Source: Candidatus Oxydemutatoraceae bacterium
GTDB lineage: Bacteria; Pseudomonadota; Gammaproteobacteria; Poriferisulfidales; Oxydemutatoraceae
Assembly (NCBI GenBank): GCA_965219575.1
Contig: OZ244779.1
Span: 1,004,769-1,068,768, forward strand
DNA length: 64,000 bases
Direction of reading: 5' to 3'
In this document: piece after piece, positions 8,656 to 37,851 of the stretch
Layout of the letters: the number at the start of each line of letters is the position of its first letter
How positions within the stretch are numbered: position 1 is the first letter of the stretch
Notes under the pieces: model-generated
What the model was told of the DNA's origin: nothing
The model's input: the letters and a program-made list of their open reading frames with translations, nothing else
Databases searched by the model: none
Program-made: the position numbers and the translations under genes

Positions 8656-8659
8656 AATC

Positions 8660-11026: not shown

Positions 11027-11163
11027 GGGCTTATATGTCCGCCCGAACACGCGTCGTGTTAGCATAAATAAAATCGTACGCCATCCAATTCATGAAACCA
11101 AAACCATCCAGCGCAAGCGGTTACGGCTTTACAGAACGGCACTTAAGGGCAGACATCAGAGTT

Positions 11164-11190
11164 GCCGATTGACCTACCGGCTCAATCGGC
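11164..11190 (+). repeat. family P palindrome
   Basis: GCCGATTGACCTACCGGCTCAATCGGC. Confidence 0.85.
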
Positions 11191-11402
11191 GGCTTTATAC
11201 TGCCCCTACAGGTGGTTTGGGTAATTAGGGGGCGCAAGCGGTTGGACTTGTGCAATGCCCGCACTTTTTCAACAGCCCCACGACACAACCACCCCATAAA
11301 AAGGCTTTACATTTTGTAAACATGTTAAATCTGCATAACATCACGCCGATTGAGCCAATAGTTTAATTAGAGATGATACAATTATCTTTTTATGAGGATG
11401 CA

Positions 11403-11684
11403 ATGGACAACAAAGATTTAGAAAAGTTAGCCAAGCTGGCTCGTTTGAAAATAGCAGACGGCGAACACGAAGCGTTGGTAAATTCCCTCAACGAGATATT
11501 GGGTTTTGTGGAACGTTTGAATACCGCGGAAATAGAAGACATAGTGCCGCTTTCTCATCCCTTGGATATGCATCAAAGGTTGCGGTCGGACGAGGTCGCA
11601 GAACCCGACGAGTCCGAGCGGTTGCAAGAAATTGCACCCGATTGGCACGATAGTTTCTATACCGTTCCCAAAGTATTGGATTAG
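11403..11684 (+). CDS. gatC: Asp/Glu-tRNA amidotransferase subunit C
   Basis: [27 protein letters not shown]; ATG 11403 has a GAGGA RBS. Confidence 0.96.
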
Positions 11685-11691
11685 GATTTTA

Positions 11692-13152
11692 ATGCTGGGC
11701 TATACACTAACCGAACTTGCCCGAGGACTACGCAAGGGTGATTTTTCAAGCACCGAACTGACCCGTTTTTTTCTTGACCGCATTGAAAATCACAACGACA
11801 CCTTAAATGCGTTTATCACGGTGACCGCCGACCAAGCGTTGCAATGTGCCGAACTAGCCGATCGGCAATCGTACGACGAGCAAACCCACCCTTTACACGG
11901 CATCCCGTTTGCGCATAAAGATTTATTTTGCACTCGCGGTGTGCGTACCAGCTGTGCTTCCAGAATGCTCGATAATTTTATTGCCCCCTACGATGCAACC
12001 GTAACAACCAAATTAAAACAGCTTTGCATGCCGATGCTGGGCAAGACCAACATGGATGAATTCGCAATGGGTTCTTCGACCGAAACCGGTTTTTACGGTG
12101 CGGTGCATAATCCTTGGGACGAGGACTGCGTGCCGGGGGGTTCCTCAGGTGGATCGGCAGCGGCGGTTGCCGCCTCGTTGGCACCGTGTGCAACGGCAAC
12201 CGATACAGGAGGCTCCATCAGACAGCCGGCAGCATTTTGCGGCATCACCGGAATCAAACCCACCTACGGGCGAGTCTCGCGCTACGGCATGGTTGCTTAT
12301 GCTTCCAGTTTGGATCAAGCCGGCGTGTTGGCGCGCAGTGCCGAGGATTGTGCGTTATTGTTGCAAGCCATCGCCGGTTTTGACGAGAAAGATTCTACCA
12401 GCACTTCGCACCCGGTACCCGATTATGCACAGGCTTTGGGTGACGGACTCAAAGGTTTGCGTATCGGTGTGCCGCAGGAATATCTGTCCGAGGATTTGGC
12501 ACCGCAGATTGCCGACAATGTCGTTGAAGCGATAGCGGTATTCAAAGACCTGGGATGTGAGATTGTGGATTTGAATCTACCGGCACTGGATTATGCGGTA
12601 GCCGCCTACTATATCATTGCGCCGGCCGAATGTTCGTCTAATCTGGCGCGCTACGACGGGGTACGCTACGGCTATAGATGTAAGGACGCACACGATCTGT
12701 CGGATTTGTATACCCGTTCACGCGCCGAAGGTTTCGGAGACGAGACCAAGCGCCGTATTCTAATCGGCACCTATGTATTGTCGGCAGGTTATTACGATGC
12801 GTATTATTTGAAAGCGCAAAAGGTGCGGCGCCTAATCAGAGACGATTTTATGAACGCTTTGGAAAAAACCGATGCGTTAATCGCCCCGGTATCGCCGACC
12901 ACCGCATTTAAGATAGGAGAGAAAATCTCCGATCCGGTGACGATGTATTTATCCGACATCTATACGATTGCGGTGAACTTGGCAGGGGTGCCGGCGATTG
13001 CTTTGCCTTCCGGCTTTATCGACAATAAACCGTTGAGCGTACAATTAATAGGTAGACATTTCGACGAACTTACTTTGTTTAAGCTGGCGCATCGCTATCA
13101 ACAACAAACCGACTGGCATCGGACGATGCCCGAACACTATAAAAACGCATGA
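11692..13152 (+). CDS. gatA: Asp/Glu-tRNA amidotransferase subunit A
   Basis: [43 protein letters not shown]; ATG 11692 after gatC stop. Confidence 0.98.
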
Positions 13153-14594
13153 ATACCGATCATTGGCAAGCGACCATCGGTCTAGAAATACACATGCAGC
13201 TCAACACTCGTAGCAAGCTGTTCTCGGCTGCCGAAGTGCGTTACGGCGGCAAAGCGAATACGCGTACATGCATGATTGACGCGGCATTGCCCGGAGTATT
13301 GCCGGTTGCCAACGAGGCTGCAATAGATATGGCAATCGCTTTCGGCTTGGCGGTTGAAGGCAATATCGCTACCACCACCGTGTTTGCCCGCAAAAATTAT
13401 TTTTATCCGGATTTACCTAAGGGCTATCAGATTAGTCAATACGAAAACCCGATAGTTTCCGGGGGGCGCGTTCCGATTGAATTGGAGGACGGCAGCGTTC
13501 GCTATATCTTGTTGGAGCGCGCACATTTGGAAGAAGATGCCGGCAAGTTGATTCACGGCACCTACGGAGAACTCAGTTGTGTAGATCTAAATCGCGCCGG
13601 GACGGTCTTGATAGAAATAGTTTCAAAGCCGGTGATGACCAGTGCCGGTGAAGCGGTTGCGTATATGAAGCAAATACATGCGATAGGGTGTTACTTGGAC
13701 ATTTGCGACGGCAATATGCAGGAAGGTTCGCTGCGCTGCGATGCCAATGTGTCTATCCGAGCAAAAGGAGACGACAAACTGGGTGTTCGCACCGAGACCA
13801 AAAATCTAAACTCGTTCCGCTTTATAGAAAAAGCCATACTGTATGAGATCGATCGTCAGATCGAGGTACTGGAACACGGCGGACGGGTTGTGCAAGAAAC
13901 CCGACTATACGACCCGGCGTTGGATGAGACGCGGGTGCTACGCAGCAAAGAGGAGGCCGAAGACTATCGCTATTTTCCCGACCCCGACCTGTTGCCGCTA
14001 CGGTTGAGCGATGAACGGATTGAAGTGCTGCGCGAGCGTCTTCCGGAATTAAAACATAGCCGATGCCGAAGGTTTAGCGAAGACTACGGCTTGAGTAAAG
14101 ACGATGCCGAACAGCTGACCAAAACAAAAGCAACGGCGGATTATTTTGAACGATGTGTCGATCTATCCGCCGCCGAACCTAAATTAATTGCGAATTGGAT
14201 GACCACCCGGTTTGCCGCGCTGTTGAACCGAGATAAACTCGGTGTAGAAGACGCGCCTATAAGACCCGAGGACCTCGGCGAACTTTTAGACAACATAGCC
14301 GAGCAGAAGATATCCGCCAATAACGCAAAAGCCGTACTGGAAAAAATGTGGGCGGAAAAACGTTCTGCCGAAGATGTGATAGACGAACTGGGATTGGAAC
14401 AAATCGGCGATGACTCGCAACTCGACGACATCGTCGATGAAATACTACGGGATAATCCTGAACAAGTGCAACAATACCTCTCGGGTAAGGAGAAAGTATT
14501 TGCTTATTTTATCGGGCAAGCGATGAAAGCCAGCAAAGGGAAAGCCAACCCCGGCAAACTGTCCGAGTTATTCAAAGCGCGTCTCAAAATGTAG
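13149..14594 (+). CDS. gatB: Asp/Glu-tRNA amidotransferase subunit B
   Basis: [49 protein letters not shown]. Confidence 0.98.
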
Positions 14595-15080: not shown

Positions 15081-15111
15081 GGATTTTTTAGTTACCTTGT
15101 ATAATTGCGTC

Positions 15112-18100
15112 ATGCTTTTAGTCCATAATTATGAACCGCAATCATACGAACAACAACGTCTATTGAAACAACTGCGGTTTATAGACCGCAACATCATCGG
15201 CATAGAAGTTGCCGAACTTTATTTTCTGCTGTCCAAAGACGATACTGCCGAGACCATAGATATAGCGAAGGTATACAGTCTGTTGGATATTCAAGACACA
15301 CACGGTGGGCAGGGGTGGCCGTGGCCGTCCGAGATAGATAATCTGCTTTATGTTGTTCCGCGGCAAGGAACGATTTCGTCTTGGTCCAGCAAAGCGACCG
15401 ATATTTTCAATATATGCAATATGGATTCGGTTGCTCGGGTAGAGCGCGGTTTTTGTTATCGTTTGCAGTTGGCTGCACGGAAATTTACATATAGCGATGC
15501 GATAAAAGCGCAGTTGCACGACCGTATGGTGGAGACGGTTTACTCCACTCGCAAAGAGATAGACGCTTGGTTGACCGCCGCACGATTACACGGGAATACG
15601 CTTCAAAACAAAAAGGTCGATAACCGGACAGCGGCTATTCGGCATCGTCAAACACTGGTCTCGGCACAGCGTATATCGACTTTCGTGAACGAGAACGCGA
15701 ACGGTTTAGGTTTATCGGAAGCCGAACTATCCCGATTTGCAAAATACTATATCGGGGTTGAGCGCATGCCTACCGACACCGAGTTAATGATGTACGCGCA
15801 AGTCAATTCGGAACATTGTAGACACAAGCTATTCAATGCACATTGGCTACTGGATTCAAAACTTCAAGAGCAAACATTGTTCGAGATGATAAAGAGTACT
15901 CGCCACGCGCTCGATAATGTTGTATCGGCTTACGAAGACAACGCTTCGGTCATTCGGCATGGCGCAAGTATCAATCGTTTGCAAATAGATCCGTCTCATA
16001 GGCACTATGTTTACGGCAACGAGGAACGGTTTTATTCGATCAAAGTGGAGACCCATAATCACCCGACGGCGATCTCTCCGTTTCCGGGTGCGGCAACCGG
16101 GTCGGGTGGTGAGATCAGGGATGAGAGCGCAACCGGACAGGGTGGATGTCCGCGCATGGGTTTGGTCGGTTTTAGCTTGTCAAACCTTCGTATTCCCGGT
16201 TTTGAACAACCTTGGGAAGATGCGCCGGTATATCCCGCACACATTGCGTCACCGTTGCAAATAATTAGCGAAGGTCCGCTCGGTGCCGCCCGTTTCAACA
16301 ACGAGTTCGGTCGCCCTTGCGTGTGTGGTTATTTTAGAACCTACGAGGGACAAGCCGAGACCTACAGATGGGGATATCACAAGCCGATCATGATTGCCGG
16401 CGGCTTAGGGAGTATATGCAAGGAACATATCGCCAAGCAGCATTTCGATGCCGATACACCCTTGGTTGTTTTCGGTGGTCCGGCGATGCGTATCGGCTTA
16501 GGCGGCGGGTCGGCATCTTCGGTCGGTGGCGGTAGTGCTTCGCACGAATTGGATTTTGCATCGGTGCAACGCGATAACGCCGAGATGCAACGTCGTTGTC
16601 AAGGTGTGATAGAACGGTGCATCGAAGAGTCGAATAATCCGATACACGCGATACACGATGTAGGTGCCGGCGGGCTTGCCAATGCGCTACCCGAGTTGGC
16701 ACACGGTGCGGGGAGAGGGGCGCATATAGACTTGCGTGCGATTCCGTGTGCCGACGACACCTTGTCGCCGATGGAGATTTGGTGTAACGAATCGCAGGAA
16801 CGATATGTTGCGGCAATAGATAAGCATTTGTTGGATAGGTTCAAGGCGTTTTGTGCACGTGAGCGATGCCCTATGGCGGTAGTCGGACGAGCAGTGCCGG
16901 AGCAGATTCTGGTATTGGAGGATCGCCTCTATCCCGAAGGCACCGCGCAGCGTATGCCGGTGAATATACCGATGGCGGTGTTGTTTGAAAAACCGTCCGA
17001 CGATCAACGTCCGCTAAAGCAAATAACCCGCACGCCTACGGTTCCTTGTCAATGGCAAGATATAGACCTCAACGATGCGATTGAACGAGTACTCAAAATG
17101 CCTGCGGTTGCCTCGAAGTCTTTTTTGATCACTATCGGCGACCGTAGCGTAACCGGTTTGATACATCGCGACCAGATGGTGGGGCCGTGGCAAGTACCGG
17201 TTTCCGATGTTGCGGTATCGTTGATTGATTATACCGGGAATGGCGGTGAGGCGATGGCGATGGGAGAGCGCACGCCCGTTGCGGTACTCGACGCAGCGGC
17301 ATCCGGACGGCTTGCGGTTGCCGAGGCGATATTGAATATATCGGCGGCCGACATACGCGAATTAAATCATATCTGTTTTTCGGCAAATTGGATGGCAGCG
17401 TGCGACTCGGCGGAACAAAGGTTCGATCTTTACAACACGGTGAAGGCGGTGACGGATCTGTGTAAAGCACTTCGTATCGCAGTACCGGTCGGTAAGGATT
17501 CTCTATCGATGCAAACCCGTTGGCAAGACGCAAGGCAACATTACCAAGTCAACTCGCCGGTATCGCTCATAGTCTCCGCTTTTGCACCGGTCGCATGCGT
17601 AAAAGATACTTTGACTCCACAGCTCGATACCCGATCATCGGCGAATCGCATTTTTCTGATCGATGTGTCGGGCGGGGATCATCGCTTGGGTGGTTCGTGC
17701 TTGATGCAAGCGTATAAACGGGAAGCGGAACCGCCCGATTTGGATAACCCGCAACGGCTGATCGATTTTTTTGAGTTGATGCGCGAATTGCGTGATGGCC
17801 GTACTGCCGATCGTAGAGATTGTCGCATACTGGCTTACCACGACCGTTCGGATGGTGGCTTGCTGGTTGCATTGATGGAGATGGCATTTGCGGCACATTG
17901 TGGTGTGCGTTGCGAGTTGAACGAGCAAGACGAATTGCTACCGGCATTATTCGGCGAGGCACCCGGTGTGCTGATACAGATCAGCGAAGACGGCACCGAG
18001 CAAATGTACGAACTTATAGAACGATATAAGGATACATTGAGGGTTCGCGAGATCGCTCACATTTTGGAAAAGAAGAACTTTGAAGTACACCACAAGGATC

Positions 18101-19095
18101 AATCGTGGGTTTGGGATTTGATGCATCTGAAACGATGGTGGAGCGAGACCGGCATGCATATACAAGCATTGCGCGATGATCCGCAATGTGCCGAAGAGGA
18201 AATGGATACTTTGTGCGATGCACATAATCCGGGTTTGCGCGCCGAATGGGATTTTGCTCTGCCCGATGATTCGAACTATGAGCCTACGACCTCGTTTGAT
18301 GCACAGAGTTTTGCTATCAAAGCCGAAAAACCCAAAGTCGCTATCCTCAGAGAGCAAGGTGTCAACGGTCATAAAGAGATGGCGGCAGCATTCGAGCAGG
18401 CAGGTTTTGCCGCCTACGACATACACATGAACGATTTGATCAACGGCGAGGCAGACCTGAAGTGTTTTCAAGGTTTGGCTGCCTGTGGGGGTTTCTCTTA
18501 CGGAGATGTGTTGGGGGCAGGTGCGGGTTGGGCACATTCTATATTGATGCACGACCGTAGCCGAGAAACCTTTGCAGAATTTTTCAACCGCACCGATACC
18601 TTTACATTCGGTGTTTGCAACGGCTGTCAAATGCTATCGCGTATCAAGGACATCATTCCCGGTGCCTCACATTGGCCGGTATTTGTGCGCAACCGTTCAA
18701 AGCAATTTGAAGCGCGCTTGGTAAAAGTAGAGATAACACCTTCACCGTCGGTATTGTTGGCAGAGATGGTCGGTGCCCGTTTGCCGATAGTTGTTTCTCA
18801 CGGAGAAGGCCGAGTGCTATTCACCGCCGAACAAACAGCGGAGCATGCAATTCCGTACACATGCCTGCGTTATATAGATAACTACGACCGTAGCACCGAA
18901 CATTATCCTGCCAACCCCAACGGTAGCCGACAAGGCATGACATCGTTTTGCAATACTGACGGTCGGGTAACGATTATGATGCCTCACCCCGAACGCCTAT
19001 TCAGAACCGACCAATACTCGTGGCACGATTCCGAATGGGAACACCTTGCACCGTGGTTCGGATTGTTCCGTAATGCCTATAAATTTTGTAGCTGA
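15112..19095 (+). CDS. purL: phosphoribosylformylglycinamidine synthase (large type)
   Basis: NSEHCRHK, KVETHNHPT, GAATGSGGEIRDE, HDVGAGG, GVCNGCQ, MPHPER; ATG 15112 preferred over TTG 15097. Confidence 0.98.
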   Translation: MLLVHNYEPQSYEQQRLLKQLRFIDRNIIGIEVAELYFLLSKDDTAETIDIAKVYSLLDIQDTHGGQGWPWPSEIDNLLYVVPRQGTISSWSSKATDIFNICNMDSVARVERGFCYRLQLAARKFTYSDAIKAQLHDRMVETVYSTRKEIDAWLTAARLHGNTLQNKKVDNRTAAIRHRQTLVSAQRISTFVNENANGLGLSEAELSRFAKYYIGVERMPTDTELMMYAQVNSEHCRHKLFNAHWLLDSKLQEQTLFEMIKSTRHALDNVVSAYEDNASVIRHGASINRLQIDPSHRHYVYGNEERFYSIKVETHNHPTAISPFPGAATGSGGEIRDESATGQGGCPRMGLVGFSLSNLRIPGFEQPWEDAPVYPAHIASPLQIISEGPLGAARFNNEFGRPCVCGYFRTYEGQAETYRWGYHKPIMIAGGLGSICKEHIAKQHFDADTPLVVFGGPAMRIGLGGGSASSVGGGSASHELDFASVQRDNAEMQRRCQGVIERCIEESNNPIHAIHDVGAGGLANALPELAHGAGRGAHIDLRAIPCADDTLSPMEIWCNESQERYVAAIDKHLLDRFKAFCARERCPMAVVGRAVPEQILVLEDRLYPEGTAQRMPVNIPMAVLFEKPSDDQRPLKQITRTPTVPCQWQDIDLNDAIERVLKMPAVASKSFLITIGDRSVTGLIHRDQMVGPWQVPVSDVAVSLIDYTGNGGEAMAMGERTPVAVLDAAASGRLAVAEAILNISAADIRELNHICFSANWMAACDSAEQRFDLYNTVKAVTDLCKALRIAVPVGKDSLSMQTRWQDARQHYQVNSPVSLIVSAFAPVACVKDTLTPQLDTRSSANRIFLIDVSGGDHRLGGSCLMQAYKREAEPPDLDNPQRLIDFFELMRELRDGRTADRRDCRILAYHDRSDGGLLVALMEMAFAAHCGVRCELNEQDELLPALFGEAPGVLIQISEDGTEQMYELIERYKDTLRVREIAHILEKKNFEVHHKDQSWVWDLMHLKRWWSETGMHIQALRDDPQCAEEEMDTLCDAHNPGLRAEWDFALPDDSNYEPTTSFDAQSFAIKAEKPKVAILREQGVNGHKEMAAAFEQAGFAAYDIHMNDLINGEADLKCFQGLAACGGFSYGDVLGAGAGWAHSILMHDRSRETFAEFFNRTDTFTFGVCNGCQMLSRIKDIIPGASHWPVFVRNRSKQFEARLVKVEITPSPSVLLAEMVGARLPIVVSHGEGRVLFTAEQTAEHAIPYTCLRYIDNYDRSTEHYPANPNGSRQGMTSFCNTDGRVTIMMPHPERLFRTDQYSWHDSEWEHLAPWFGLFRNAYKFCS

Positions 19096-19107
19096 TTAAC
19101 TATAGCT

Positions 19108-20205
19108 ATGTCTTGTCCTATATATATTATCCATCTGAAGCGTAATCCGGAACGGCGGCTTTATATGCAAAGACAACTGGATGCCTTCGGCTTGGATTAC
19201 AGTTTTGTAGAAGTAGATGTTTTTGATAAATACGAATTGGAATCGAAGGCATACCGCATCCGTGTTGCTAGTATGTTGGAGATTGACGAGCAGGCTTTGG
19301 AAAATAAATATGCTACGGTGATAGATGATGTGAAAAATCATCGTAGAAATAAATACCATGAATTAGCGTTACTTGCTATCGGGTTGAGTCATATAAAAGT
19401 TCATAATTTGATGATAGAAAATAATCACGCGATGGCGTGTATATTAGAAGATGATGCAAAATTATTGCCGACTTTCCCCGAGGCTCTTAAAACCGCACCC
19501 GATTTAGAGTGGGATATATTACAGTTTTGTCACGAGCCTAGTTATTTTCTCTTTGCTCCATTTTTGATCCGTCATTTTTCTAGGATAGGGTTCCTAAAAC
19601 TTCCTAATCTTCGGTTATTCTTTTCTAAGAATTATGACGATATAGATAGACGGATAATCAGAGAATATGGTTTTGCTGAGCGGAAATATTCAAAGCCGGT
19701 GACCTATATAACAAAAACCATGCAACTATATCGTAATAGGCACAAAAGCATCATCAAATCTCTAATTCCCGAAATTATTATAAGTATTTTCATTCCCGGC
19801 ATCATCAGGAAATTCTTGGTTTCTAAAAGTCATTTACTACTTATAAATAACATCAGCCATACTACCGAATTGTTAAAGCTCAATACTACAATTGAACTAG
19901 GTATGTTTCCCGAGGAACCCAATCCAACCCTTATAACCGAACATCATTGCATTGCTAAGCCTAGAGGAGCAGTTGTGTCGACTACGGCGTATTTAGTAAG
20001 ACAATCGGCTATAGCCCAATGGAAACAAGAATTACTTTCCGAGAACCCTTTAGGTGTAGATCAGATTCCTTGGCAGTTATACAAAAATGAGCAAGTAAAA
20101 CTACGCATAATTAGCCCACCTTGTGCGACGGCTACTTATGGTTATCTAAAATATACAATGCGCCGTTCGGATATTCACTTTAATGTAAATAAAACAAATT
20201 TTTAG
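19108..20205 (+). CDS. glycosyltransferase family 25, array copy 1
   Basis: IYII.L.R..ERR, LSHIK, CILEDD, WDILQF, STTAYLV. Confidence 0.88.
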   Translation: MSCPIYIIHLKRNPERRLYMQRQLDAFGLDYSFVEVDVFDKYELESKAYRIRVASMLEIDEQALENKYATVIDDVKNHRRNKYHELALLAIGLSHIKVHNLMIENNHAMACILEDDAKLLPTFPEALKTAPDLEWDILQFCHEPSYFLFAPFLIRHFSRIGFLKLPNLRLFFSKNYDDIDRRIIREYGFAERKYSKPVTYITKTMQLYRNRHKSIIKSLIPEIIISIFIPGIIRKFLVSKSHLLLINNISHTTELLKLNTTIELGMFPEEPNPTLITEHHCIAKPRGAVVSTTAYLVRQSAIAQWKQELLSENPLGVDQIPWQLYKNEQVKLRIISPPCATATYGYLKYTMRRSDIHFNVNKTNF

Positions 20206-20216
20206 GTTTAATCTAA

Positions 20217-20800
20217 TGATCTTCCTCCCAAAGTGGACAAAAAAGTTGGTGGTCAGCTTATATAATTAAGCGCACTTAAGTTAACTATATTAACCGGAGA
20301 AGATATTATGGCAAGACGAGTATACACAGAAGAGTACAAGCGAGAGGCACTCGATTTAGTGAAACTTAATGGTTCCTTAAAAGGCACGGCATGGGAATTG
20401 GGAATTGCTGATCGTACCCTGCGACGCTGGGCGCGCCAATATGAGAAACCGACATCGGCAAGTGAGTTAAAGCGTGTTGAGACTATGGAGAAAGATGAGA
20501 TTATTCGTAGCCGGGACAAAAAGATCCGAGAGCTTGAAAGGAAGGTCGAGTTTTTGACCGAAACCATGGCTTTTTTTTGCCAAGAGAGAAACAAGTGAAG
20601 TATCGGTATAGAGCGACCTCGTTATCAGGACTTGAGTTTGGAGGCAACTTGCAAGATGTTAGCAGTGAGTCGTAGTGGCTACTACAAGTGGCGTAGTCAG
20701 AAGGCCGATAAGATGGCACAGGGGCATCGGGAATGTATGCAGATTAGACGCGTATGGGAAGGCAGTGGCAAGACTTATGGTTCCCCGCGTATCTATGTGG
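20217..20800 (+). mobile_element. IS3-family remnant: left IR, orfA (20308-20598), 5' fragment of orfB
   Basis: TGATCTTCCTCCCAAAGTGGACA end; HTH_Tnp_1-like YTEEYKREA..A.ELGI..TLRRW; CKMLAVSRSGYYKW..TYGSPRI then truncation. Confidence 0.9.
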
Positions 20801-20843
20801 TTGTACGATGCCGGATACCTACTGCAACTGATTAACTATAGCT

Positions 20844-21938
20844 ATGTCCTGTCCTATATACATTATCAATCTGAGGCGTAATCCGGAGCGACGGCTTTAT
20901 ATGCAAAGACAGTTGGATGCCTTCGGCTTGGATTACAGCTTTGTAGAGGTAGATGTTTTTGATAAATACGAATTGGAATCGAAGGCATACCGCATCCGTG
21001 TTGCTAGTATGTTGGAGATTGACGAGCAGGCTTTGGAAAATAAATATGCTACGGTGATAGATGATGTGAAAAATCATCGTAGAAATAAATACCATGAATT
21101 AGCGTCACTTGCTATCGGGTTGAGTCATATAAAAGTTCACAACTTGATGATAGAAAATAATCACGCGATGGCGTGTATATTAGAAGATGATGCTAAATTA
21201 TTGCCGACTTTCCCCGAGGTTCTTAAAACCGCACCCGATTTAGAGTGGGATATATTACAGTTTTGTCACCAGCCTAGTTATTTTCTCTTTGCTCCATTTT
21301 TGATCCGTCATTTTTCTAGGATAGGGTTCCTAAAATTTCCTAATCTTCGGTTATTTTTTTCTAAGAATTATGACGATATAGATAGACGGATAATCAGAGA
21401 ATATGGTTTTGCTGAGCGGAAATATTCAAAGCCGGTGACCTATATAACAAAAACCATGCAACTATATCGTAATAGGCACAAAAGCATCATCAAATCTCTA
21501 ATTCCCGAAATTATTATAAGTATTTTCATTCCCGGCATCATCAGGAAATTCTTGTTTTCTAAAAGTCAATTACAAATAAATAATATTGGGCAGACTATCG
21601 GATTGTTAAAGCTCAATACTACAATTGAACTAGGTATGTTTCCCGAGGAACCCAATTCAACCCTTATAACCGAACATCATTGCATTGCTAAGCCTAGAAG
21701 AAAAATTGTGTCGACTACGGCGTATTTAGTAAGACAATCGGCTATAGCCCAATGGAAACAAGAATTACTTTCCGAGAACCCTTTAGGTGTAGATCAGATT
21801 CCTTGGCAGTTATACAAAAATGAGCAAGTAAAACTACGCATAATTAGCCCACCTTGTGCGACGGCTACTTATGGTTATCTAAAATATACAACGCGCTGTT
21901 CGGATATTCACTTTAATGTAAATAAAACAAATTTTTAG
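20844..21938 (+). CDS. glycosyltransferase family 25, array copy 2
   Basis: Near-identical to copy 1, intact 364 aa. Confidence 0.88.
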   Translation: MSCPIYIINLRRNPERRLYMQRQLDAFGLDYSFVEVDVFDKYELESKAYRIRVASMLEIDEQALENKYATVIDDVKNHRRNKYHELASLAIGLSHIKVHNLMIENNHAMACILEDDAKLLPTFPEVLKTAPDLEWDILQFCHQPSYFLFAPFLIRHFSRIGFLKFPNLRLFFSKNYDDIDRRIIREYGFAERKYSKPVTYITKTMQLYRNRHKSIIKSLIPEIIISIFIPGIIRKFLFSKSQLQINNIGQTIGLLKLNTTIELGMFPEEPNSTLITEHHCIAKPRRKIVSTTAYLVRQSAIAQWKQELLSENPLGVDQIPWQLYKNEQVKLRIISPPCATATYGYLKYTTRCSDIHFNVNKTNF

Positions 21939-21949
21939 GTTTAATCTAA

Positions 21950-22535
21950 TGATCTTCCTCCAAAAAGTGGACAAAAAAAGTTGGTGGTCAGCCTATATAA
22001 TTAAGCGTACTTAAGTTAACTATATTAACCGGAGAAGATATTATGGCAAGACGAGTATACACAGAAGAGTACAAGCGAGATGCACTCGATTTAATGAAGC
22101 GTAATGGTTCATTAAAAGGCACGGCAAGGGAATTGGGAATTGCTGATCGTACCCTGCGACGCTGGGCGCGCCAATATGAGAAACCGACATCGGCAAGTGA
22201 ACTAAAGCGTGTTGAGACTATGGAGAAAGATGAGATTATTCGTAGCCGGGACAAAAAGATCCGAGAGCTTGAAAGGAAGGTCGAGTTTTTGACGGAAACC
22301 ATGGCTTTTTTTGCCAAGAGAGAAACAAGTGAAGTATCGGTATAGAGCGACCCCGTTATCAGGACTTGAGTTTGGAGGCAACTTGCAAGATGTTAGCAGT
22401 GAGTCGCAGTGGCTACTACAAGTGGCGTAGTCAAAAGGCCGACAAGAGGGCACAGGCGCATCGGGAATGTCTGCAGATTAGACGCGTATGGGAAGACAGT
22501 GGCAAGACTTATGGTTCCCCGCGTATCTATGTGGT
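21950..22535 (+). mobile_element. IS3-family remnant, copy 2 (orfA 22043-22345)
   Basis: Same ends and breakpoint as copy 1; orfA reads AFFAK (7-T run). Confidence 0.9.
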
Positions 22536-22577
22536 TGTACGATGCCGGATACCTACTGCAACTGATTAACTATAGCT

Positions 22578-23675
22578 ATGTCCTGTCCTATATACATTAT
22601 CAATCTGAGGCGTAATCCGGAGCGACGGCTTTATATGCAAAGACAGCTGGATGCCTTCGGCTTGGATTACAGCTTTGTAGAGGTAGATGTTTTTGATAAA
22701 TACGAATTGGAATCGAAGGCATACCGCATCCGTGTTGCTCGCATGTTAGGGATTGACGAGCAGGCTTTGGAAAATAAATATGCTACGGTGATAGATGATG
22801 TGAAAAATCATCGTATAAATAAATATCATCGATTAGCATTACTTGCTATCGGGTTGAGTCATATAAAAGTCTATAACTTGATGAGAGAAAATAATCATGC
22901 GATGGCGTGTATATTAGAAGATGATGCCAAATTATTGCCGACTTTCCCCGAGGTGCTTAAAATCGCCCCCGATCTAGAGTGGGATATATTACAGTTTTGT
23001 CACCAGCCTAAGCGCATTTTCTTTGTTCCATTTTTGATCCGTAATTTTTGCAGAATAGATTTCCTAAAATTTAGTAATCTTCGGTTACTCTTTCCTAACA
23101 ACTATAACAAGATAGACAGACGGATAATAAGAGAATATGGTTTTGATAATCCAAAATATTCAAAGCCGGCGGCCTATATAACAAAAACCATGCAACGATA
23201 TCGTAATAGGTACAAAAGCATTACCAAACCTCTAATTCCCAAAATTATCATAAGTATTTTCATTCCCGGCATCATTAGGAAATTCTTGGTTTCTAAAAGT
23301 CGTTTACTACTTATAAAAAACATCAGTCGTACTACCGAATTGTTAAAACTCACTACTACGATTGAACTAGGTATGCTTCCCGAGGAACCCGATCCAACTC
23401 TTATAACCGAGCATCACTGCATTGCTAAGCCTAGAGGAGATGTTGTATCGACTACGGCGTATTTGGTAAGACAATCGGCTATAGCTAAATGGAAACAAGG
23501 ATTACTTTCCGAAAACCCTCTAGGTGTAGATCAGATTCCTTGGAAGTTGTACGAGAACGGGCAGGTAAAGCTACGCATAATTAGCCCGCCTTGTGCGACG
23601 GCTACTTATGGTTACCGAAAATATACAATGCGTCGCTCGGATATTCACTTTGGCATAAGTAAAACAAATTTTTAG
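22578..23675 (+). CDS. glycosyltransferase family 25, array copy 3
   Basis: Intact 365 aa, CILEDD. Confidence 0.88.
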   Translation: MSCPIYIINLRRNPERRLYMQRQLDAFGLDYSFVEVDVFDKYELESKAYRIRVARMLGIDEQALENKYATVIDDVKNHRINKYHRLALLAIGLSHIKVYNLMRENNHAMACILEDDAKLLPTFPEVLKIAPDLEWDILQFCHQPKRIFFVPFLIRNFCRIDFLKFSNLRLLFPNNYNKIDRRIIREYGFDNPKYSKPAAYITKTMQRYRNRYKSITKPLIPKIIISIFIPGIIRKFLVSKSRLLLIKNISRTTELLKLTTTIELGMLPEEPDPTLITEHHCIAKPRGDVVSTTAYLVRQSAIAKWKQGLLSENPLGVDQIPWKLYENGQVKLRIISPPCATATYGYRKYTMRRSDIHFGISKTNF

Positions 23676-23686
23676 GTTTAATCTAA

Positions 23687-24273
23687 TGATCTTCCTCCCA
23701 AAGTGGACAAAAAAGTTGGTGGTCAGCTTATATAATTAAGCGCGCTTAAGTTAACTATATTAACCGGAGAAGATATTATGGCAAGACAAGTATACACAGA
23801 AGAGTACAAGCGAAATGCACTCGATTTAGTGAGACTTAATGGTTCCTTAAAAGGCACGGCAAGGGAATTGGGCATTGATGATCGTACCCTGCGACGCTGG
23901 GCGCGCCAATATGAGAAACCGACATCGGCAGGTGAGTTAAAGCGTGTTGAGGCTATGGAGAAAGATGAGATTATTCGTAGCCAGGACAAAAAGATCCGAG
24001 AGCTTGAAAGGAAGGTCGAGTTTTTGACCGAAACCATGGCTTTTTTTTGCCAAGAGAGAAACAAGTGACGTATCGGTATATAGAGCGACCTCGTTATCAG
24101 GACTTGAGTTTGGAGGCAACTTGCAAGATGTTAGCAGTGAGTCGCAGTGGCTACTACAAGTGGCGTAGTCAAAAGGCCGACAAGAGGGCACAGGCGCATC
24201 GGGAATGTATGCGGATTAGAGACGTATGGGAAGACAGTGGCAAGACTTATGGTTCCCCGCGTATCTATGTGGT
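23687..24273 (+). mobile_element. IS3-family remnant, copy 3 (orfA 23778-24068)
   Basis: Same ends and breakpoint as copies 1 and 2. Confidence 0.9.
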
Positions 24274-24315
24274 TGTACGATGCCGGATACCTACTGCAAC
24301 TGATTAACTATAGCT

Positions 24316-25413
24316 ATGTCCTGTCCTATATATATTATCCATCTGAAGCGTAATCCGGAACGGCGGCTTTATATGCAAAGACAACTGGATGCCTTCGGCT
24401 TGGATTACAGCTTTGTAGAGGTAGATGTTTTTGATAAATACGAATTGGAATCCAAGGCGTACCGCATCCGTGTTGCTCGCATGTTGGAGATTGACGAGCA
24501 GGCTTTGGAAAATAAATATGCTACGGTGATAGATTATGTGAAAAATCATCGTAGAAATAAATACCATCGATTAGCATTACTTGCTATCGGGTTGAGTCAT
24601 ATAAAAGTCTATAACTTGATGAGAGAAAATAATCATGCGATGGCGTGTATATTAGAAGATGATGCTAAATTATTGCCGACTTTCCCCGAGGTGCTTAAAA
24701 TCGCCCCCGATCTAGAGTGGGATATATTACAGTTTTGTCACCAGCCTTGGCAATTTCGCTTTGACTCATTTTTGATCCGTAATTTTTGCAGAATAGATTT
24801 CCTAAAATTTAGTAATCTTCGGTTACTCTTTCCTAACAACTATAACAAGATAGACAGACGGATAATAAGAGAGTATGGTTTTGATAATCCGAAATATTCA
24901 AAGCCGGCGACCTATATAACAAAAACCATGCAACGATATCGTAATAGGTACAAAAGCATTACCAAACCTCTAATTCCCAAAATTATCATAAGTATTTTCA
25001 TTCCCGGCATCATTAGGAAATTCTTGGTTTCTAAAAGTCGTTTACTACTTATAAATAACATCAGCCATACTACCAAATTGTTAAAACTCAATACTATGAT
25101 TGAACTAGGTATGTTTCCCGAGGAACCCGATCCAACCCTTATAACCGAGCATCACTGCATTGCTAAGCCTAGAGAGAGAATTGGGTCGACCACGGCGTAT
25201 TTAGTAAGACAATCGGCTATAGCCGAATGGAAACAAGAATTACTCTCCGAGAACTTTCTAGGTATAGATGAGATTCCTTGGCAGTTATACAAAAATGGGC
25301 AAGCAAAACTAAGCATAATTAGCCCGCCTTGTGCGACGGCTATTTATGGTTACCTAAAATATACAATGCGTCGTCCCCAATATCACCGTAAGTTAGGTAA
25401 AACAGAGTTTTAG
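24316..25413 (+). CDS. glycosyltransferase family 25, array copy 4
   Basis: Intact 365 aa, divergent C-terminus, no IS3 downstream. Confidence 0.88.
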   Translation: MSCPIYIIHLKRNPERRLYMQRQLDAFGLDYSFVEVDVFDKYELESKAYRIRVARMLEIDEQALENKYATVIDYVKNHRRNKYHRLALLAIGLSHIKVYNLMRENNHAMACILEDDAKLLPTFPEVLKIAPDLEWDILQFCHQPWQFRFDSFLIRNFCRIDFLKFSNLRLLFPNNYNKIDRRIIREYGFDNPKYSKPATYITKTMQRYRNRYKSITKPLIPKIIISIFIPGIIRKFLVSKSRLLLINNISHTTKLLKLNTMIELGMFPEEPDPTLITEHHCIAKPRERIGSTTAYLVRQSAIAEWKQELLSENFLGIDEIPWQLYKNGQAKLSIISPPCATAIYGYLKYTMRRPQYHRKLGKTEF

Positions 25414-25451
25414 GTTTAACCTACGAGTAGTTTATAGCAATTTATGATGAA

Positions 25452-26003
25452 TCATCTCCATTTGATGGAGCAGCCGATACCGGGAATTTGGTGTTCGGGT
25501 CCACGACCGGTTTCGGCAATTAGAATCATTGCTTCCAGTAGCTCCTGTTTTAAGTCGCCGCTGCTCTTCGAGGGACCGCTTGCATCGAGCCGTCCTCTAT
25601 ATTGAAGTTCAAAATCTTTGTTATAACCGAAGAAATCGGGTGTGCAAACCGCTCCGTAGGTCTTAGCGACCGCTTGGCTTTGGTCGTATAAATAGGGGAA
25701 AGGATAGGCAAATTTTTGGGCTATTTTTTTCATATTATCAAATGAGTCTTCGCTATATTCGGCGGGATCGTTGGACATAACCGCAACCGAATTGATACCG
25801 TAATCGAGCAACTGTTTGGTTTGAATACTTAGTTTTTTTTGGATCGCTTTTACATACGGGCAGTGATTGCATATAAACATGACCAGCAAGCCGTTTGCTC
25901 CCATGCAGTCGCGTGCGTTGTATGTTTTACCGTCGGTTGCCGGCAAGCTGAAGTCGTGCATCGCTTCTCCGAAATTGCAAACCGGTGTTGTTTTTGCTAC
26001 CAT
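25452..26003 (-). CDS. thioredoxin-family (AhpC/TSA-like) protein
   Basis: MFICNHCPYV, AVCTPDFFG, YRGRLD, GCSIKW. Confidence 0.93.
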   Translation of the reverse strand: MVAKTTPVCNFGEAMHDFSLPATDGKTYNARDCMGANGLLVMFICNHCPYVKAIQKKLSIQTKQLLDYGINSVAVMSNDPAEYSEDSFDNMKKIAQKFAYPFPYLYDQSQAVAKTYGAVCTPDFFGYNKDFELQYRGRLDASGPSKSSGDLKQELLEAMILIAETGRGPEHQIPGIGCSIKWR

Positions 26004-26105
26004 AGTCGTTTATCTACTGAATGTGCTTGAATGCATGAGTATATTACCCGATTTTTTCGCATTATCAAATCTTAGAATAGAGAAATCCGGCAAAACGAGA
26101 ACTTA

Positions 26106-27239
26106 ATGACACGATTTTTTACTTCCGAATCGGTTTCCGAAGGTCACCCCGACAAGATCTGTGATCAGATATCCGACGGTATTTTGGATGCCTTGATAGC
26201 CGAAGATCGCAACAGTCGCGTCGCTTGCGAGGCGATGGTCAAGAATAACCATGTCGTTGTCGGAGGTGAGATTTCCAGCAGTGCCGATATTTGTTATGAA
26301 AGACATATTCGTAGCATTATTGCCGAAATAGGCTACGACGACCCCGGCTTGGGTTTCGATGCCGAACACTGTGGTATATCAATTTTGCTGGGTTTGCAGT
26401 CGTCCGATATCAGTCAAGGCTTAGAACGAGACGAGTCGCAAGGAGCCGGAGATCAAGGTTCGATGTTCGGTTATGCCAGCAACGAGACCGACGAATTAAT
26501 GCCCGCTCCGATTACTTATGCGCATCGCTTGCTCAAGCGACATTCCGAATTGAGACGCGCAAAGACATTACCGTGGCTGCGTCCCGACGCCAAGAGCCAA
26601 CTCAGTTTTCGCTACGAGGACGACAAACCGGTCGGCATATCGGCAATTGTTTTTTCTACCCAGCACGACGAAACGGTGTCGCTTGCCGATATCGAAGAAG
26701 CGGTGAGAGAGCAGATTATCAAAGAAGTATTACCATCGGAATGGTTGTCCGCCGATACCCGTTACCATATCAACCCGACCGGACGTTTCGTGGTCGGTGG
26801 ACCGGTCGGTGATTGCGGGCTGACCGGGCGTAAGATTATCGTCGATACCTACGGCGGCATGGCACGACACGGCGGCGGTGCTTTTTCGGGCAAGGATCCG
26901 TCCAAGGTAGATCGCTCGGCAGCTTATGCTGCGCGTTATGTTGCCAAAAATATCGTTGCAGCAGGTCTAGCCGAGCGTTGCGAGGTTCAGTTGTCTTATG
27001 CAATCGGTGTTGCCGAACCGGTTTCAATCTCGGTGAATACCTTTGCAACCGGTAATTTAGCCGATTCGGAGATCGCATCTTTGGTGAAAAAGCATTTTGA
27101 TTTACGACCTGTGGCAATCATCGAGGATTTGGATTTGTTAAACCCGATATACAAGCAGACTGCGGCATACGGACATTTCGGCAGAGACGATATAAAATTG
27201 CCGTGGGAAAGATGTGATAAGGTAGAATTGTTAAAGTGA
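26106..27239 (+). CDS. metK: methionine adenosyltransferase
   Basis: [35 protein letters not shown]. Confidence 0.99.
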
Positions 27240-36820: not shown

Positions 36821-36949
36821 TCGCCTCGCCGAATATGACAAATAGCCGTATAAAGCTGTTATACACGGTGGTGTCGCAGAGGAAGATCATGTCGCCTCGT
36901 TGAATATGCCAAATAGCTGTATAAAGCTGTTATGCACGGGGGTGTCACA
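36821..36949 (-). repeat. 58-bp duplication of GT25 3' end (71-bp period) flanking an 11-bp IS3-end sequence
   Basis: 36821-36878 vs 36892-36949; GAGGAAGATCA at 36879-36889. Confidence 0.8.
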
Positions 36950-37851
36950 ATAGACAACCTGACCTCGTTGCGTTCGGCTAATGCCTTAGGAATGAAATCA
37001 ATATGTCCATGCTTATCGGTTAATGCTTCCTTTTTCCACTTTTCAGCCGTCTCTAATCTAAGCATATAACCCATACCTCCCTGACAATATTCGGGCAACT
37101 TACTCGCTATATAGTAGTTATCCGTAATGTGGTGCTTGAATGCCTTGTCGTGAGAGAAGGCAGCACCCATTTTGGATACATAATATTGCCAAAAAGCTTG
37201 TTTCTCTTGTACATTTTCAAAATTTATTACTACTCGATTTATATCAAAACTACTTTTGCGGACTATACTATACGGATATAAATGCCAATGGCGTTTAACG
37301 ATATTAAAAGCACATTGCATCGCTATCAAATGTTGCCTTAGACTCAACCGCGGCTTGTGCATATAATGTTTTATCAATTTCCGACACACGGAACGATATG
37401 ACTTATGTCTCATGATACTCACTAGAGTATTTATTAGTCTCCCGACACTATCCGAATGATTAGCGAGCATTAATATGTCCCAGGGAAATTGCTGCACATT
37501 ATTTAATATCTCGGGAAATACGGGGGATATATCGGTATCATCTTCTAATATACAGGCTAGCGGGATATTATTCTTTATCATCGAATTGTAGGCTTTAATG
37601 TGACTGAACAAAATTGCATACGGGGACCATGTAGATGACCATATAGATACATTTTTTTCTATGGCATCTTCGTTCATGCCGAATTCTCGGGCAACCTTGA
37701 GGCGGTAATCTTTAGAGAAAAAATCGCGCCCGTCAAATGCTTCTATAATTTGATATTTCAGATTCAGAGCATCGAGCTGTCTTTGTACGGATAATCTACG
37801 CTCCGGTACTCGCCTTAGACTGATTACATAAATAGGGATGTCGGTGCTCAT
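36859..37851 (-). CDS. glycosyltransferase family 25 (distant paralog of the array genes)
   Basis: IYVISLRR..ERR, AFDG, SHIK, CILEDD, WDIL, PPC..A.Y.YL.Y..RR shared with array copies. Confidence 0.88.
   Translation of the reverse strand: MSTDIPIYVISLRRVPERRLSVQRQLDALNLKYQIIEAFDGRDFFSKDYRLKVAREFGMNEDAIEKNVSIWSSTWSPYAILFSHIKAYNSMIKNNIPLACILEDDTDISPVFPEILNNVQQFPWDILMLANHSDSVGRLINTLVSIMRHKSYRSVCRKLIKHYMHKPRLSLRQHLIAMQCAFNIVKRHWHLYPYSIVRKSSFDINRVVINFENVQEKQAFWQYYVSKMGAAFSHDKAFKHHITDNYYIASKLPEYCQGGMGYMLRLETAEKWKKEALTDKHGHIDFIPKALAERNEVRLSIVTPPCITALYSYLAYSTRRHDLPLRHHRV

What the first reader, a model, noticed from the sequence alone, without database searches (positions are those of the whole stretch)
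19092..25420. Tandem array of four intact, mosaic GT25 glycosyltransferases: candidate glycan-diversification cassette
Seen: four full-length 364-365 aa paralogs 12 bp downstream of purL, with incongruent relationships along the gene. At the 5' end copy 1=4 (IIHLKR) and 2=3 (IINLRR). In the middle 1=2 (RHFSRIGF..NYDDID) and 3=4 (RNFCRIDF..NYNKID). INNISHTT is shared by 1 and 4 only. The C-terminal tail is shared by 1 and 2, similar in 3 and unique in 4. All GT genes stay intact while the interleaved IS DNA is defective. Known: GT25 includes LOS beta-galactosyltransferases (Lic2A/LgtB), classic variable loci, and collagen galactosyltransferases. Inference: an accordion-like array diversified by gene conversion or unequal crossover.
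Basis: partly seen in the sequence, partly recalled or inferred. Interest (0 to 1): 0.8.

Follow-up and report, generated by a model that had tools for sequence, protein, structure and literature searches.

The report
Four-copy mosaic glycosyltransferase gene array
A sponge-associated sulfur bacterium has turned one conserved sugar-transferase gene into a row of four intact, differing copies that swap segments with each other, a familiar way for bacteria to vary a surface sugar, here in an unstudied enzyme subfamily.

Summary
Four intact GT25 genes (365/364/365/365 aa) lie head to tail from 12 bp after purL, in units of about 1,736 bp. Each unit is one gene plus a 0.61-kb IS3 remnant without the transposase catalytic domain.

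All three internal junctions are identical, so I infer one founding duplication, then unequal crossover. Three related Ca. Porisulfidus genomes carry one copy at this site.

Mosaicism is real. In the window, 57 informative sites group 12|34. Six group 14|23, all within nt 18-69 (exact P 1.2e-8). A second assembly carries four copies that are block chimeras of the window's types (Rmin 14).

Divergence concentrates after the invariant E-D-D motif, mainly in a lineage-specific insertion of about 120 aa. Its dN/dS is 0.57-0.77, the same between orthologues, so duplication brought no extra acceleration.

There are no phase-variation repeats, no LOS gene context and no named LgtB/Lic2A match. Glycan diversification therefore remains inference.

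I rate it a new variant of a known kind and moderately interesting.

The parts
15097..19095 (+). purL (large FGAR amidotransferase), the conserved upstream neighbour. Its stop codon lies inside the first bases of repeat unit 1.
   Evidence: ORF. (PF13507, PF22689, PF02769, PF18076, PF18072). (94% identity to L001, same position).
19092..25423 (+). The whole array, [GT25 + IS3 remnant] x3 + GT25. The unit is about 1,736 bp. It begins 16 nt before each ATG and ends 10 nt after each stop.
19108..20205 (+). GT25 copy 1 (365 aa), type 12; 5' end of the 14 kind.
20216..20827 (+). IS3-family remnant 1 (612 nt): left end, orfA (20308-20598) and the first ~60 codons of orfB (20632-20835). No DDE domain and no right end.
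   Evidence: PF01527. (NF033516 positions 1-77 and 102-160 of 369)..
20844..21938 (+). GT25 copy 2 (364 aa, with one in-frame 3-nt deletion), type 12; 5' end of the 23 kind.
21949..22561 (+). IS3-family remnant 2 (613 nt).
22578..23675 (+). GT25 copy 3 (365 aa), type 34; 5' end of the 23 kind.
23686..24299 (+). IS3-family remnant 3 (614 nt).
24316..25413 (+). GT25 copy 4 (365 aa), type 34; 5' end of the 14 kind. It has a private C-terminal tail and keeps the native 3' flank seen in L001.
25452..26003 (-). Peroxiredoxin gene, the conserved downstream neighbour, followed by metK, ahcY and rsmE.
36859..37851 (-). A fifth, distant GT25 paralogue (31-32% identity). It is not part of the array but shows the family expansion in this genome.

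Best explanation
The array is a lineage-specific tandem amplification of the conserved purL-adjacent GT25 glycosyltransferase gene. The organism is a sponge-associated Ca. Porisulfidus, a gammaproteobacterium used in print as the outgroup to SUP05.

Origin (shown in part, then inferred). An IS3-family element inserted 10 nt after the gene's stop. One illegitimate join then linked an internal IS position to a point within about 9-16 nt before the gene's ATG. The join is shown. That this created a duplicated unit later expanded to four copies by unequal homologous crossover is inferred from the three identical junctions.

Current state (shown). All four copies are kept intact by selection, with the invariant S-H and E-D-D motifs and Asp318. 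They differ mostly downstream of the E-D-D motif, in a lineage-specific insertion of about 120 residues and in the C-terminal tail. Gene conversion tracts of roughly 0.05-0.45 kb move blocks between copies, so related strains carry different chimeras.

Function (inferred). Each copy transfers a hexose from a nucleotide sugar to a glycan acceptor at the cytoplasmic face, most likely LPS/LOS or another surface glycan. Re-assorting the variable, acceptor-side blocks would give strains different sets of transferase specificities. That would vary the surface glycan seen by phages or by the sponge host.
For: Architecture:
- Four ORFs and spacings.
- Identical junctions in units 2-4.
- A truncated IS3.

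Ancestral single copy:
- L001, L003 and L004 (3 of the 3 loci that contain purL) have gatB-purL-one GT25-prx-metK-ahcY-rsmE.
- In the tree, the window's four copies, the four copies of the second assembly and P0003 form one clade, sister to L001.

Selection keeps the ORFs open:
- Random substitutions at the observed numbers (37-110) give at least one stop in 83-99% of 5,000 simulations. Observed: 0 stops and one in-frame deletion.
- The IS remnants, with only 20-25 differences, have 2-5 gap columns per pair.
- E114-D115-D116 and S94-H95 are present in 45 of 45 family members, and D318 in 44 of 45.

Recombination:
- 57/6/2 informative sites, with all six 14|23 sites at nt 18-69.
- P0125 = copy 2 (aa 1-74) / copy 3 (aa 80-218) / copy 2 (aa 222-365).
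- P0126 = copy 2 with a copy-3 block at aa 145-192.
- P0130 = a copy-3 backbone with a copy-1/4 N-terminus and the copy-4-specific M261, F314 and P354.
- 371 of 1,081 site pairs fail the four-gamete test, Rmin 14.
- The copy-2 patch INNIGQTIG recurs in P0003 from another contig.

The array is reproduced in other assemblies. A 22,451-bp contig encodes four proteins that are exact substrings of copies 1-4. A 1,278,805-bp contig encodes four distinct variants.

Generality. L002 has an independent four-gene GT25 array that is also block-mosaic, with 60 runs against 90.5 +/- 5.6 in shuffles and 0 of 20,000 shuffles as low.

Where variation lies:
- 12 of 142 N-core columns vary, against 67 of the remaining 223 (Fisher P = 4.8e-7).
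- hhalign against 26 classical GT25 proteins aligns aa 1-155 and 275-343, leaving about 120 aa as an insertion.

Precedent that small changes retune GT25 enzymes: position 151 of LpsA decides Glc versus Gal (PMC4120200, passages).

The organism has a KdsC-family gene, so it probably makes Kdo-containing LPS.
Against: - No functional link to LPS/LOS was found. The neighbours are housekeeping genes, NCBIfam gives 0 families, and the only solved relative by sequence is marginal (procollagen galactosyltransferase 1, E 0.003).
- Whole-gene dN/dS among copies is 0.29-0.48, much like the 0.26-0.46 of comparisons involving the single-copy orthologues. The insert's 0.57-0.77 is likewise the same between orthologues. 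The copies may therefore just drift in a loosely constrained region.
- Only the short tail of copy 4 exceeds 1 (1.12-1.78, on 15-18 changes).
- Synonymous divergence between the two types (0.18-0.25) matches the window-to-L001 species divergence (0.13-0.33 in flanking genes). It far exceeds the 3.3-4.1% divergence of the IS remnants. A simple 'recent amplification, then in-place divergence' does not fit. Either the spacers are homogenised or divergent alleles were imported, and I could not tell which.
- The order and adjacency of the four copies on the second assembly are unknown, because only proteins were available.
- Four-gamete counts on amino acids can be inflated by recurrent change.
Confidence: 0.6

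Rival explanations
1. Neutral or dosage amplification. The array is a by-product of IS-mediated duplication, possibly selected for more enzyme. The copies are functionally redundant, and their differences reflect weak constraint on a fast-evolving insertion rather than new specificities.
For: - dN/dS by region is the same for paralogues and orthologues: insert 0.57-0.77, N-core 0.08-0.23.
- No whole-gene dN/dS exceeds 1.
- A frameshifted family member exists in L005, so copies can decay.
- Tandem amplifications are common and unstable (established knowledge, recalled).
Against: - Four ORFs stay open at dS up to 0.25.
- Four distinct copies are kept in at least two strains.
- An independent array exists in L002.
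- At least 9 GT25 genes sit on one 2.37-Mb contig, judged by equal contig length.
- Pure dosage selection would favour homogenised copies, yet the spacers are more alike (3.3-4.1%) than the genes (3.4-11.2%).
Confidence: 0.25
2. The enzymes glycosylate proteins rather than LPS/LOS. Candidate targets are a bacterial adhesin or a host protein such as collagen. The array would then diversify target recognition.
For: - The only solved relatives by sequence are the GT25 domains of procollagen galactosyltransferase 1.
- Collagen glycosylation is conserved down to sponges (PMC12987934, passages).
- The L002 array abuts type III secretion genes sctJ/K/L.
- A giant GLUG-repeat protein is encoded in the window.
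Against: - The match to the collagen enzyme is marginal (E 0.003, about 60 residues around the E-D-D motif).
- The purL-linked locus in four genomes has no secretion genes nearby.
- The type III genes in L002 are on the opposite strand.
- Bacterial GT25 proteins characterised so far act on LPS/LOS (Pfam description; PMC3244457, passages).
Confidence: 0.08
3. Assembly artefact. A metagenome assembler threaded strain variants of a one- or two-copy locus into a false four-copy array.
For: - The source is an uncultured-organism assembly (record titles of relatives).
- Copies differ by 3-11%, which is the range of strain or species variants.
- The 22,451-bp contig with identical proteins may derive from the same reads, so it is not independent proof.
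Against: - Single-copy genomes have no IS at this site. Every variant would therefore need the same truncated IS and the same junction.
- The three spacers are mutually distinct.
- A different assembly (contig of 1,278,805 bp) also holds four distinct copies.
- Mis-assembly of repeats usually collapses copies rather than adding them (recalled).
Confidence: 0.05

Closest known systems
Neisseria lgtABCDE lipooligosaccharide locus (the lgtB/lgtE paralogues)
   Same: Paralogous glycosyltransferase genes sit side by side in one locus, and locus variants differ between strains. The gonococcal locus has five ORFs, the first and second homologous to the fourth and fifth (PMC2191774, abstract start in the search listing). 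Strain 15253 keeps only lgtA and lgtE (PMC2192810, abstract). That lgtB and lgtE belong to GT25, and that recombination between the paralogues makes hybrid genes, is recalled and was not seen in any call.
   Different: - Here there are four copies of one gene, not two pairs, separated by an IS3 remnant.
- There are no homopolymer or tetranucleotide phase-variation tracts.
- There are no other LOS genes in the locus.
- The protein carries an insertion of about 120 aa that is absent from classical GT25.
- No NCBIfam model is matched.
Haemophilus influenzae LpsA / Lic2A (GT25 LPS hexosyltransferases)
   Same: Same Pfam family. Allelic changes retune specificity: position 151 of LpsA decides glucose versus galactose (PMC4120200, passages, citing Deadman et al. 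2006, which I did not read).
   Different: Those are single-copy genes that vary as alleles or by repeat-mediated on/off switching. Here the variants coexist in one genome as an array and exchange blocks. Identity to classical GT25 is low (23% over 207 aligned columns).
IS-associated tandem gene amplification by unequal crossover ('accordion' amplification)
   Same: Head-to-tail units share one novel junction. Copy number differs between relatives: 1 in L001, L003 and L004, and 4 here.
   Different: Classical amplifications are young, near-identical and unstable. These copies differ by 3.4-11.2% at the DNA level, stay intact, and are found as four distinct genes in a second assembly.
GT25 domain of human procollagen galactosyltransferase 1 (GLT25D1/ColGalT1)
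   Same: Shares the N-terminal 'INLxRxxxRR' stretch and the SH...EDD region. The solved structure places the active site in the GT25 domain, with a DxD motif and an Asp base (PMC12987934, passages).
   Different: The sequence match is marginal (E 0.003). The human enzyme is a two-domain ER protein acting on hydroxylysine. Equivalence of Asp318 here to its catalytic Asp was not tested.

Membership tests
Glycosyltransferase family 25 (Pfam PF01755) | Profile match above the curated gathering score | tested here: met
   50.1, 55.0, 51.8 and 51.0 bits against a cut-off of 24. The match covers only profile positions 3-109/121 of 199.
Glycosyltransferase family 25 (Pfam PF01755) | Invariant acidic E-D-D (DXD-type) motif after the S-H motif | tested here: met
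   E114-D115-D116 and S94-H95 are invariant in the four copies and in 45 of 45 family members. E-D-D is the only invariant stretch in 26 classical GT25 proteins.
Glycosyltransferase family 25 (Pfam PF01755) | C-terminal half of the domain with its conserved Asp (putative catalytic base) | tested here: inconclusive
   hhalign aligns aa 275-343 to the C-terminal half of classical GT25 at probability 100. D318 is present in 44 of 45 members. Its role as the base is inferred by analogy with GLT25D1 (PMC12987934, passages) and was not aligned directly.
Glycosyltransferase family 25 (Pfam PF01755) | Glycosyl transfer from a nucleotide sugar | not testable with these tools
   Needs an enzyme assay.
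LOS beta-galactosyltransferases of the LgtB/LgtE/Lic2A kind | Match to a named curated model | tested here: not met
   NCBIfam returned 0 families for copy 1 and for the fifth paralogue.
LOS beta-galactosyltransferases of the LgtB/LgtE/Lic2A kind | Location among LOS/LPS core or outer-core genes | tested here: not met
   The neighbours are gatA/gatB, purL, a peroxiredoxin gene, metK, ahcY and rsmE. The same holds in L001, L003 and L004.
Phase-variable (contingency) glycosyltransferase loci | Simple-sequence repeat in or before the ORF | tested here: not met
   no repeat of a 2-5 nt unit with 5 or more copies. The only homopolymer of 7 or more is a T7 in copy 2.
IS3-family insertion sequence (the spacer) | orfA HTH plus orfB with a DDE domain, and two inverted ends | tested here: not met
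   Only NF033516 positions 1-77 and 102-160 of 369 are present, at 34 and 37 bits against a cut-off of 160. PF01527 is present in orfA. No inverted repeats were found in 18500-26500. It is a remnant, not an element.
Tandem amplification by unequal crossover | Head-to-tail units sharing one novel junction | tested here: met
   The 70 nt before each ATG of copies 2-4 are identical. Spacings are 1736, 1734 and 1738 bp.
Gene conversion / mosaic paralogues | Spatially clustered phylogenetic incongruence | tested here: met
   (P = 1.2e-8; 0 of 20,000 permutations). (block chimeras; Rmin 14 among 8 proteins, 3 within the window).

The most novel reading that the evidence does not exclude
The long GT25 subfamily, with its hypervariable insertion of about 120 residues, is a symbiont-specific glycan bar-code system. 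Several expressed copies per genome sit in arrays that arise repeatedly. They re-assort acceptor-recognition blocks by gene conversion without any on/off switch. Each strain of this sponge symbiont would then display its own surface glycan. That glycan would decide recognition by the sponge host or by phages.
Probability: 0.2. Interest if true: 0.7.

Novelty: new variant of a known kind. Interest (0 to 1): 0.5.

Why it matters
How sponge symbionts are told apart from food bacteria, and how they escape phages, is poorly understood. Surface glycans are prime suspects.

This locus offers a concrete and tractable handle. One conserved gene has become a four-member, recombining array in one species. 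It is single-copy in three relatives and independently arrayed in a fifth genome. The variation is concentrated in one insertion of an otherwise conserved enzyme.

If the copies differ in specificity, this would be a switch-free route to glycan diversity. It would also give a marker for strain-level tracking of the symbionts.

If they do not differ, it is an ordinary IS-seeded amplification in a fast-evolving gene family.

Tried and rejected
- Tandem Repeats Finder found nothing, because its longest period is 500. The repeat finder and my own alignment were used instead.
- PDB by sequence: 0 hits for copy 1, 0 for the insert alone, and only marginal procollagen galactosyltransferase hits for the family profile.
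- Pfam on the insert (aa 143-275) and on aa 276-365 gave nothing significant. The best hit was ArsP_1, E 0.012, below its cut-off. NCBIfam gave no family.
The variable residues could therefore not be mapped on a fold, and no fold search was run.
- The protein-atlas search did not hold the sequence or a homologue.
- Positive selection: whole-gene dN/dS is 0.29-0.48. Only the 22-codon tail of copy 4 exceeds 1. Rejected as a general explanation.
- I tested whether the single L001 gene is itself a mosaic of the two array types, which would suggest a collapsed ancient array. The evidence is only weak: runs test P = 0.037 for L001, 0.083 for L003 and 0.38 for L004, uncorrected.
- Phase-variation repeats: none.
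- Promoter and terminator scans did not exceed shuffles: 25 against 20.9 +/- 4.3, and 7 against 5.6 +/- 2.4. No + strand terminator lies inside the array. This gives no evidence for separate transcription units.
- The hydrophobic stretch at aa 215-233 (Kyte-Doolittle 2.05) is partly deleted in the L001 orthologue, so I do not claim a membrane anchor.
- Literature searches found nothing on this subject:
  - 'Porisulfidus': 4 papers, none on glycosyltransferases by the passages seen.
  - 'glycosyltransferase family 25' + 'symbiont': 3 papers.
  - 'GT25' + 'sponge': 5 papers.
  - A five-term sponge-symbiont/LPS search: 325 papers, 12 listed.
  - None describes GT25 arrays in sponge symbionts, judged by titles and abstract starts only.
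- Not checked: metagenome contigs and viral contigs (closed), the DNA of the second assembly, and the rest of the source genome.

Full report
WHAT IS THERE. The window holds four same-strand ORFs at 19108-20205, 20844-21938, 22578-23675 and 24316-25413. They encode 365, 364, 365 and 365 aa. The purL ORF (15097-19095; five FGAR-amidotransferase Pfam domains) ends 12 bp before the first of them.

All four match Pfam PF01755 (GT25) at 50-55 bits, against a cut-off of 24. Protein identity to copy 1 is 95, 86 and 85%.

The repeat unit is about 1,736 bp, with start-to-start spacings of 1736, 1734 and 1738 bp. It begins 16 nt before each ATG and ends 10 nt after each stop.

Between the genes lie three spacers of 612-614 nt. 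Each is the left part of an IS3-family element:
- an orfA with PF01527;
- NF033516 profile positions 1-77 and 102-160 of 369;
- no DDE domain, no right end and no inverted repeat.

ORIGIN OF THE ARRAY. The 70 nt before the ATG of copies 2, 3 and 4 are identical. There is therefore one novel junction, from which I infer one founding duplication followed by unequal crossover.

The native 3' flank survives after copy 4 and matches the flank in L001. This places the IS insertion 10 nt after the stop.

The closest genomes in the species-representative collection are MAGs titled 'uncultured candidatus Porisulfidus sp.'. That genus is named as a known sponge symbiont (PMC12988363, abstract passage). 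It was also used as the outgroup to SUP05 (PMC9123188, figure-legend passage).

Three of the five loci fetched (L001, L003, L004) contain purL. All three show gatB-purL-one GT25-prx-metK-ahcY-rsmE. The single copy is thus the ancestral state, or at least the common one. The gene is a conserved resident of this site, not an island.

The gene is nevertheless compositionally odd. Its GC is 37-39%, against about 50% in the neighbours, and the same holds for the L001 and L003 orthologues.

IS THE MOSAIC REAL?
Within the window, 65 nucleotide sites are parsimony-informative: 57 support (1,2)(3,4), six support (1,4)(2,3) and two support (1,3)(2,4).
- The six (1,4)(2,3) sites are the first six, at nt 18-69. 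The first (1,2)(3,4) site is at nt 163.
- The exact probability of that order is 1.2e-8. A PHI-like permutation test gave 0 of 20,000 shuffles as low as observed.
- So one breakpoint is solid, and the rest of the gene fits one tree.
- INNISHTT and the tail are private changes of copies 2, 3 and 4. They are not evidence for a third tree.

The stronger evidence comes from other assemblies.
- A 22,451-bp contig encodes four proteins that are exact substrings (from Met20) of copies 2, 1, 4 and 3.
- A 1,278,805-bp contig encodes four different relatives. Painted against the window's copies at the 79 variable columns, they read as follows:

| Protein | Composition |
|---|---|
| P0125 | copy 2 (aa 1-74) / copy 3 (aa 80-218) / copy 2 (aa 222-365) |
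| P0126 | copy 2 with a copy-3 block at aa 145-192 |
| P0130 | copy-3 backbone, copy-1/4 N-terminus, copy-4-specific M261, F314 and P354 |
| P0001 | copy 1 with three changes towards the other type |

- Among these eight proteins, 371 of 1,081 pairs of informative columns fail the four-gamete test (Rmin 14; 3 for the window alone). Amino-acid homoplasy may inflate this count.
- The private patch of copy 2 (INNIGQTIG) recurs in P0003 from a third contig.

An independent array in L002, a different species and locus, has four GT25 genes. Three are 82-88% identical to each other, and the array is also block-mosaic: 60 runs against 90.5 +/- 5.6, with 0 of 20,000 shuffles as low.

SELECTION AND AGE.
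DNA differences among copies are 37/1092 (copies 1-2), 81/1095 (copies 3-4) and 106-122 per 1092-1095 between the two types. The IS remnants differ by only 20-25 per 611-612, or 3.3-4.1%.

Synonymous divergence between the types is 0.18-0.25. That is as large as copy-to-L001 (0.26-0.31) and as the flanking genes between the window and L001 (0.13-0.33).

The tree separates the four copies from L001+L003+L004 with 87% support on a short branch.

A recent amplification followed by in-place divergence therefore does not fit. Either the spacers and the 5' 160 nt are homogenised while the gene bodies are kept apart, or divergent alleles were imported. I could not decide between these. A test for L001 being a collapsed chimera was weak (P = 0.037).

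The junction before copies 2-4 reads TGCAAC-TGA. That is the purL end of L004. The window's own purL end, shared with L001, is TGTAGC-TGA. This is unexplained.

dN/dS is 0.29-0.48 among copies, and 0.26-0.46 in comparisons involving the single-copy orthologues. Neighbouring genes give 0.03-0.18.

By region, among the six copy pairs:

| Region | dN/dS |
|---|---|
| N-core (aa 1-142) | 0.08-0.17 |
| Insert (aa 143-275) | 0.57-0.77 |
| C-core (aa 276-343) | 0.12-0.54; undefined for copies 1-2, which have no synonymous change there |
| Tail (aa 344-365), pairs with copy 4 | 1.12-1.78, on few sites |

The insert value is the same in the four orthologue comparisons (0.61-0.71). In those comparisons the N-core reaches 0.23.

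The ORFs are clearly maintained. Random substitutions at the observed numbers produce a stop in 83-99% of simulations. The genes have none, and only one in-frame deletion.

THE PROTEIN. In a search of 1.84 billion representatives, 141 proteins match at E <= 1e-3 and 30 at E <= 1e-30. Only eight match in one stretch spanning at least residues 5-347. Most of the rest match best in the first 140 residues or so.

A profile comparison with 26 classical GT25 proteins, all PF01755, aligns aa 1-155 and 275-343 at probability 100. About 120 residues are left as a lineage-specific insertion.

Variable columns among the four copies:

| Region | Variable columns |
|---|---|
| N-core | 12 of 142 |
| Insert | 41 of 133 |
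| C-core | 15 of 68 |
| Tail | 11 of 22 |

N-core against the rest gives P = 4.8e-7.

S94-H95 and E114-D115-D116 are invariant in 45 of 45 family members, and D318 in 44 of 45.

By equal contig length, the source contig (2,369,097 bp) carries at least nine GT25 genes: four in the array, four more distant ones (P0051, P0080, P0097, P0118) and the one at 36859-37851. Of the 32 listed relatives with at least 66% identity, 14 share a contig length with another.

FUNCTION. Shown: a GT25-type catalytic core is preserved in all copies. Inferred: hexose transfer to a glycan acceptor, with the variable post-E-D-D half setting acceptor or linkage.

Two points support the inference.
- A single residue of the GT25 enzyme LpsA decides Glc versus Gal (PMC4120200, passages).
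- Bacterial GT25 relatives act in LPS biosynthesis (PMC3244457, passages).

Several points count against a simple LOS reading.
- No named model is matched.
- There is no LOS gene context.
- There are no phase-variation repeats.

A KdsC-family gene suggests only that the organism makes Kdo-containing LPS.

COMPARISON AND VERDICT. The nearest known system is the neisserial lgt locus, where paralogous transferase genes sit side by side and the locus differs between strains (PMC2191774, listing abstract; PMC2192810, abstract). That those paralogues belong to GT25 and recombine into hybrids is my recollection.

This locus differs in five ways:
- it is four copies of one gene;
- the array was seeded, and is spaced, by an IS3 remnant;
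- it lacks on/off repeats;
- it sits among housekeeping genes;
- it belongs to a narrow subfamily with a large variable insertion.

I rate it a new variant of a known kind. The genetic mechanism is well supported. The biological purpose is plausible but untested.

Noticed in passing
window 48227-64000 (+), runs off the window: A giant ORF of more than 5,258 aa with many GLUG motifs (PF07581, E 2e-35 and 5e-45 for its two halves). It looks like a huge surface adhesin-type protein.
   Followed up: partly
window 36859-37851 (-), with 35992-36501 (+) and 36592-36786 (+): A fifth, distant GT25 paralogue (31-32% identity to the array copies; PF01755 E 6e-18). It lies next to tRNA-Cys and tRNA-Leu and a KdsC-family Kdo-8-phosphate phosphatase.
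   Followed up: partly
L002 5060-13894: An independent tandem array of four GT25 genes (8525-9610, 10001-11089, 11181-12236, 12806-13894) sits between type III secretion genes (sctL/K/J-like, opposite strand) and hslVU. Three copies are 82-88% identical and block-mosaic.
   Followed up: partly
L004 3210-5835: A second GT25 gene (4747-5835, -; 65-70% identity) is inserted between gatB and purL, beside an IS110-family transposase (3210-4337, -). The purL neighbourhood therefore gained a GT25 twice in the genus.
   Followed up: partly
L005 10001-11085: A frameshifted member of the same subfamily (two overlapping ORFs; tblastn in two frames), next to an inverted 351-aa paralogue. Not all copies are maintained.
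   Followed up: no
window 20822-20830, 22556-22564, 24294-24302 versus 19087-19095: The bases before the shared CTGATTAAC in units 2-4 read TGCAAC. That equals the last purL codons of L004. The window's own purL and L001 read TGTAGC. This may be chance or a trace of a foreign or older allele.
   Followed up: no
window 827-1978 (+), 2642-3559 (-), 8851-9987 (-): Two AAA_14+DUF4143 ATPase genes and a PLD-like NgoFVII-type nuclease gene. The nuclease lies in a 35% GC stretch, which suggests a small mobile or defence-type insertion among trp and rpe genes.
   Followed up: no
window 19108-25413 and the orthologues in L001 and L003: The GT25 genes have GC 37-39% (GC3 33-39%), against about 50% in all neighbours. 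The same is true of the orthologues of other species, so the low GC is a long-standing property and not a sign of recent transfer.
   Followed up: yes
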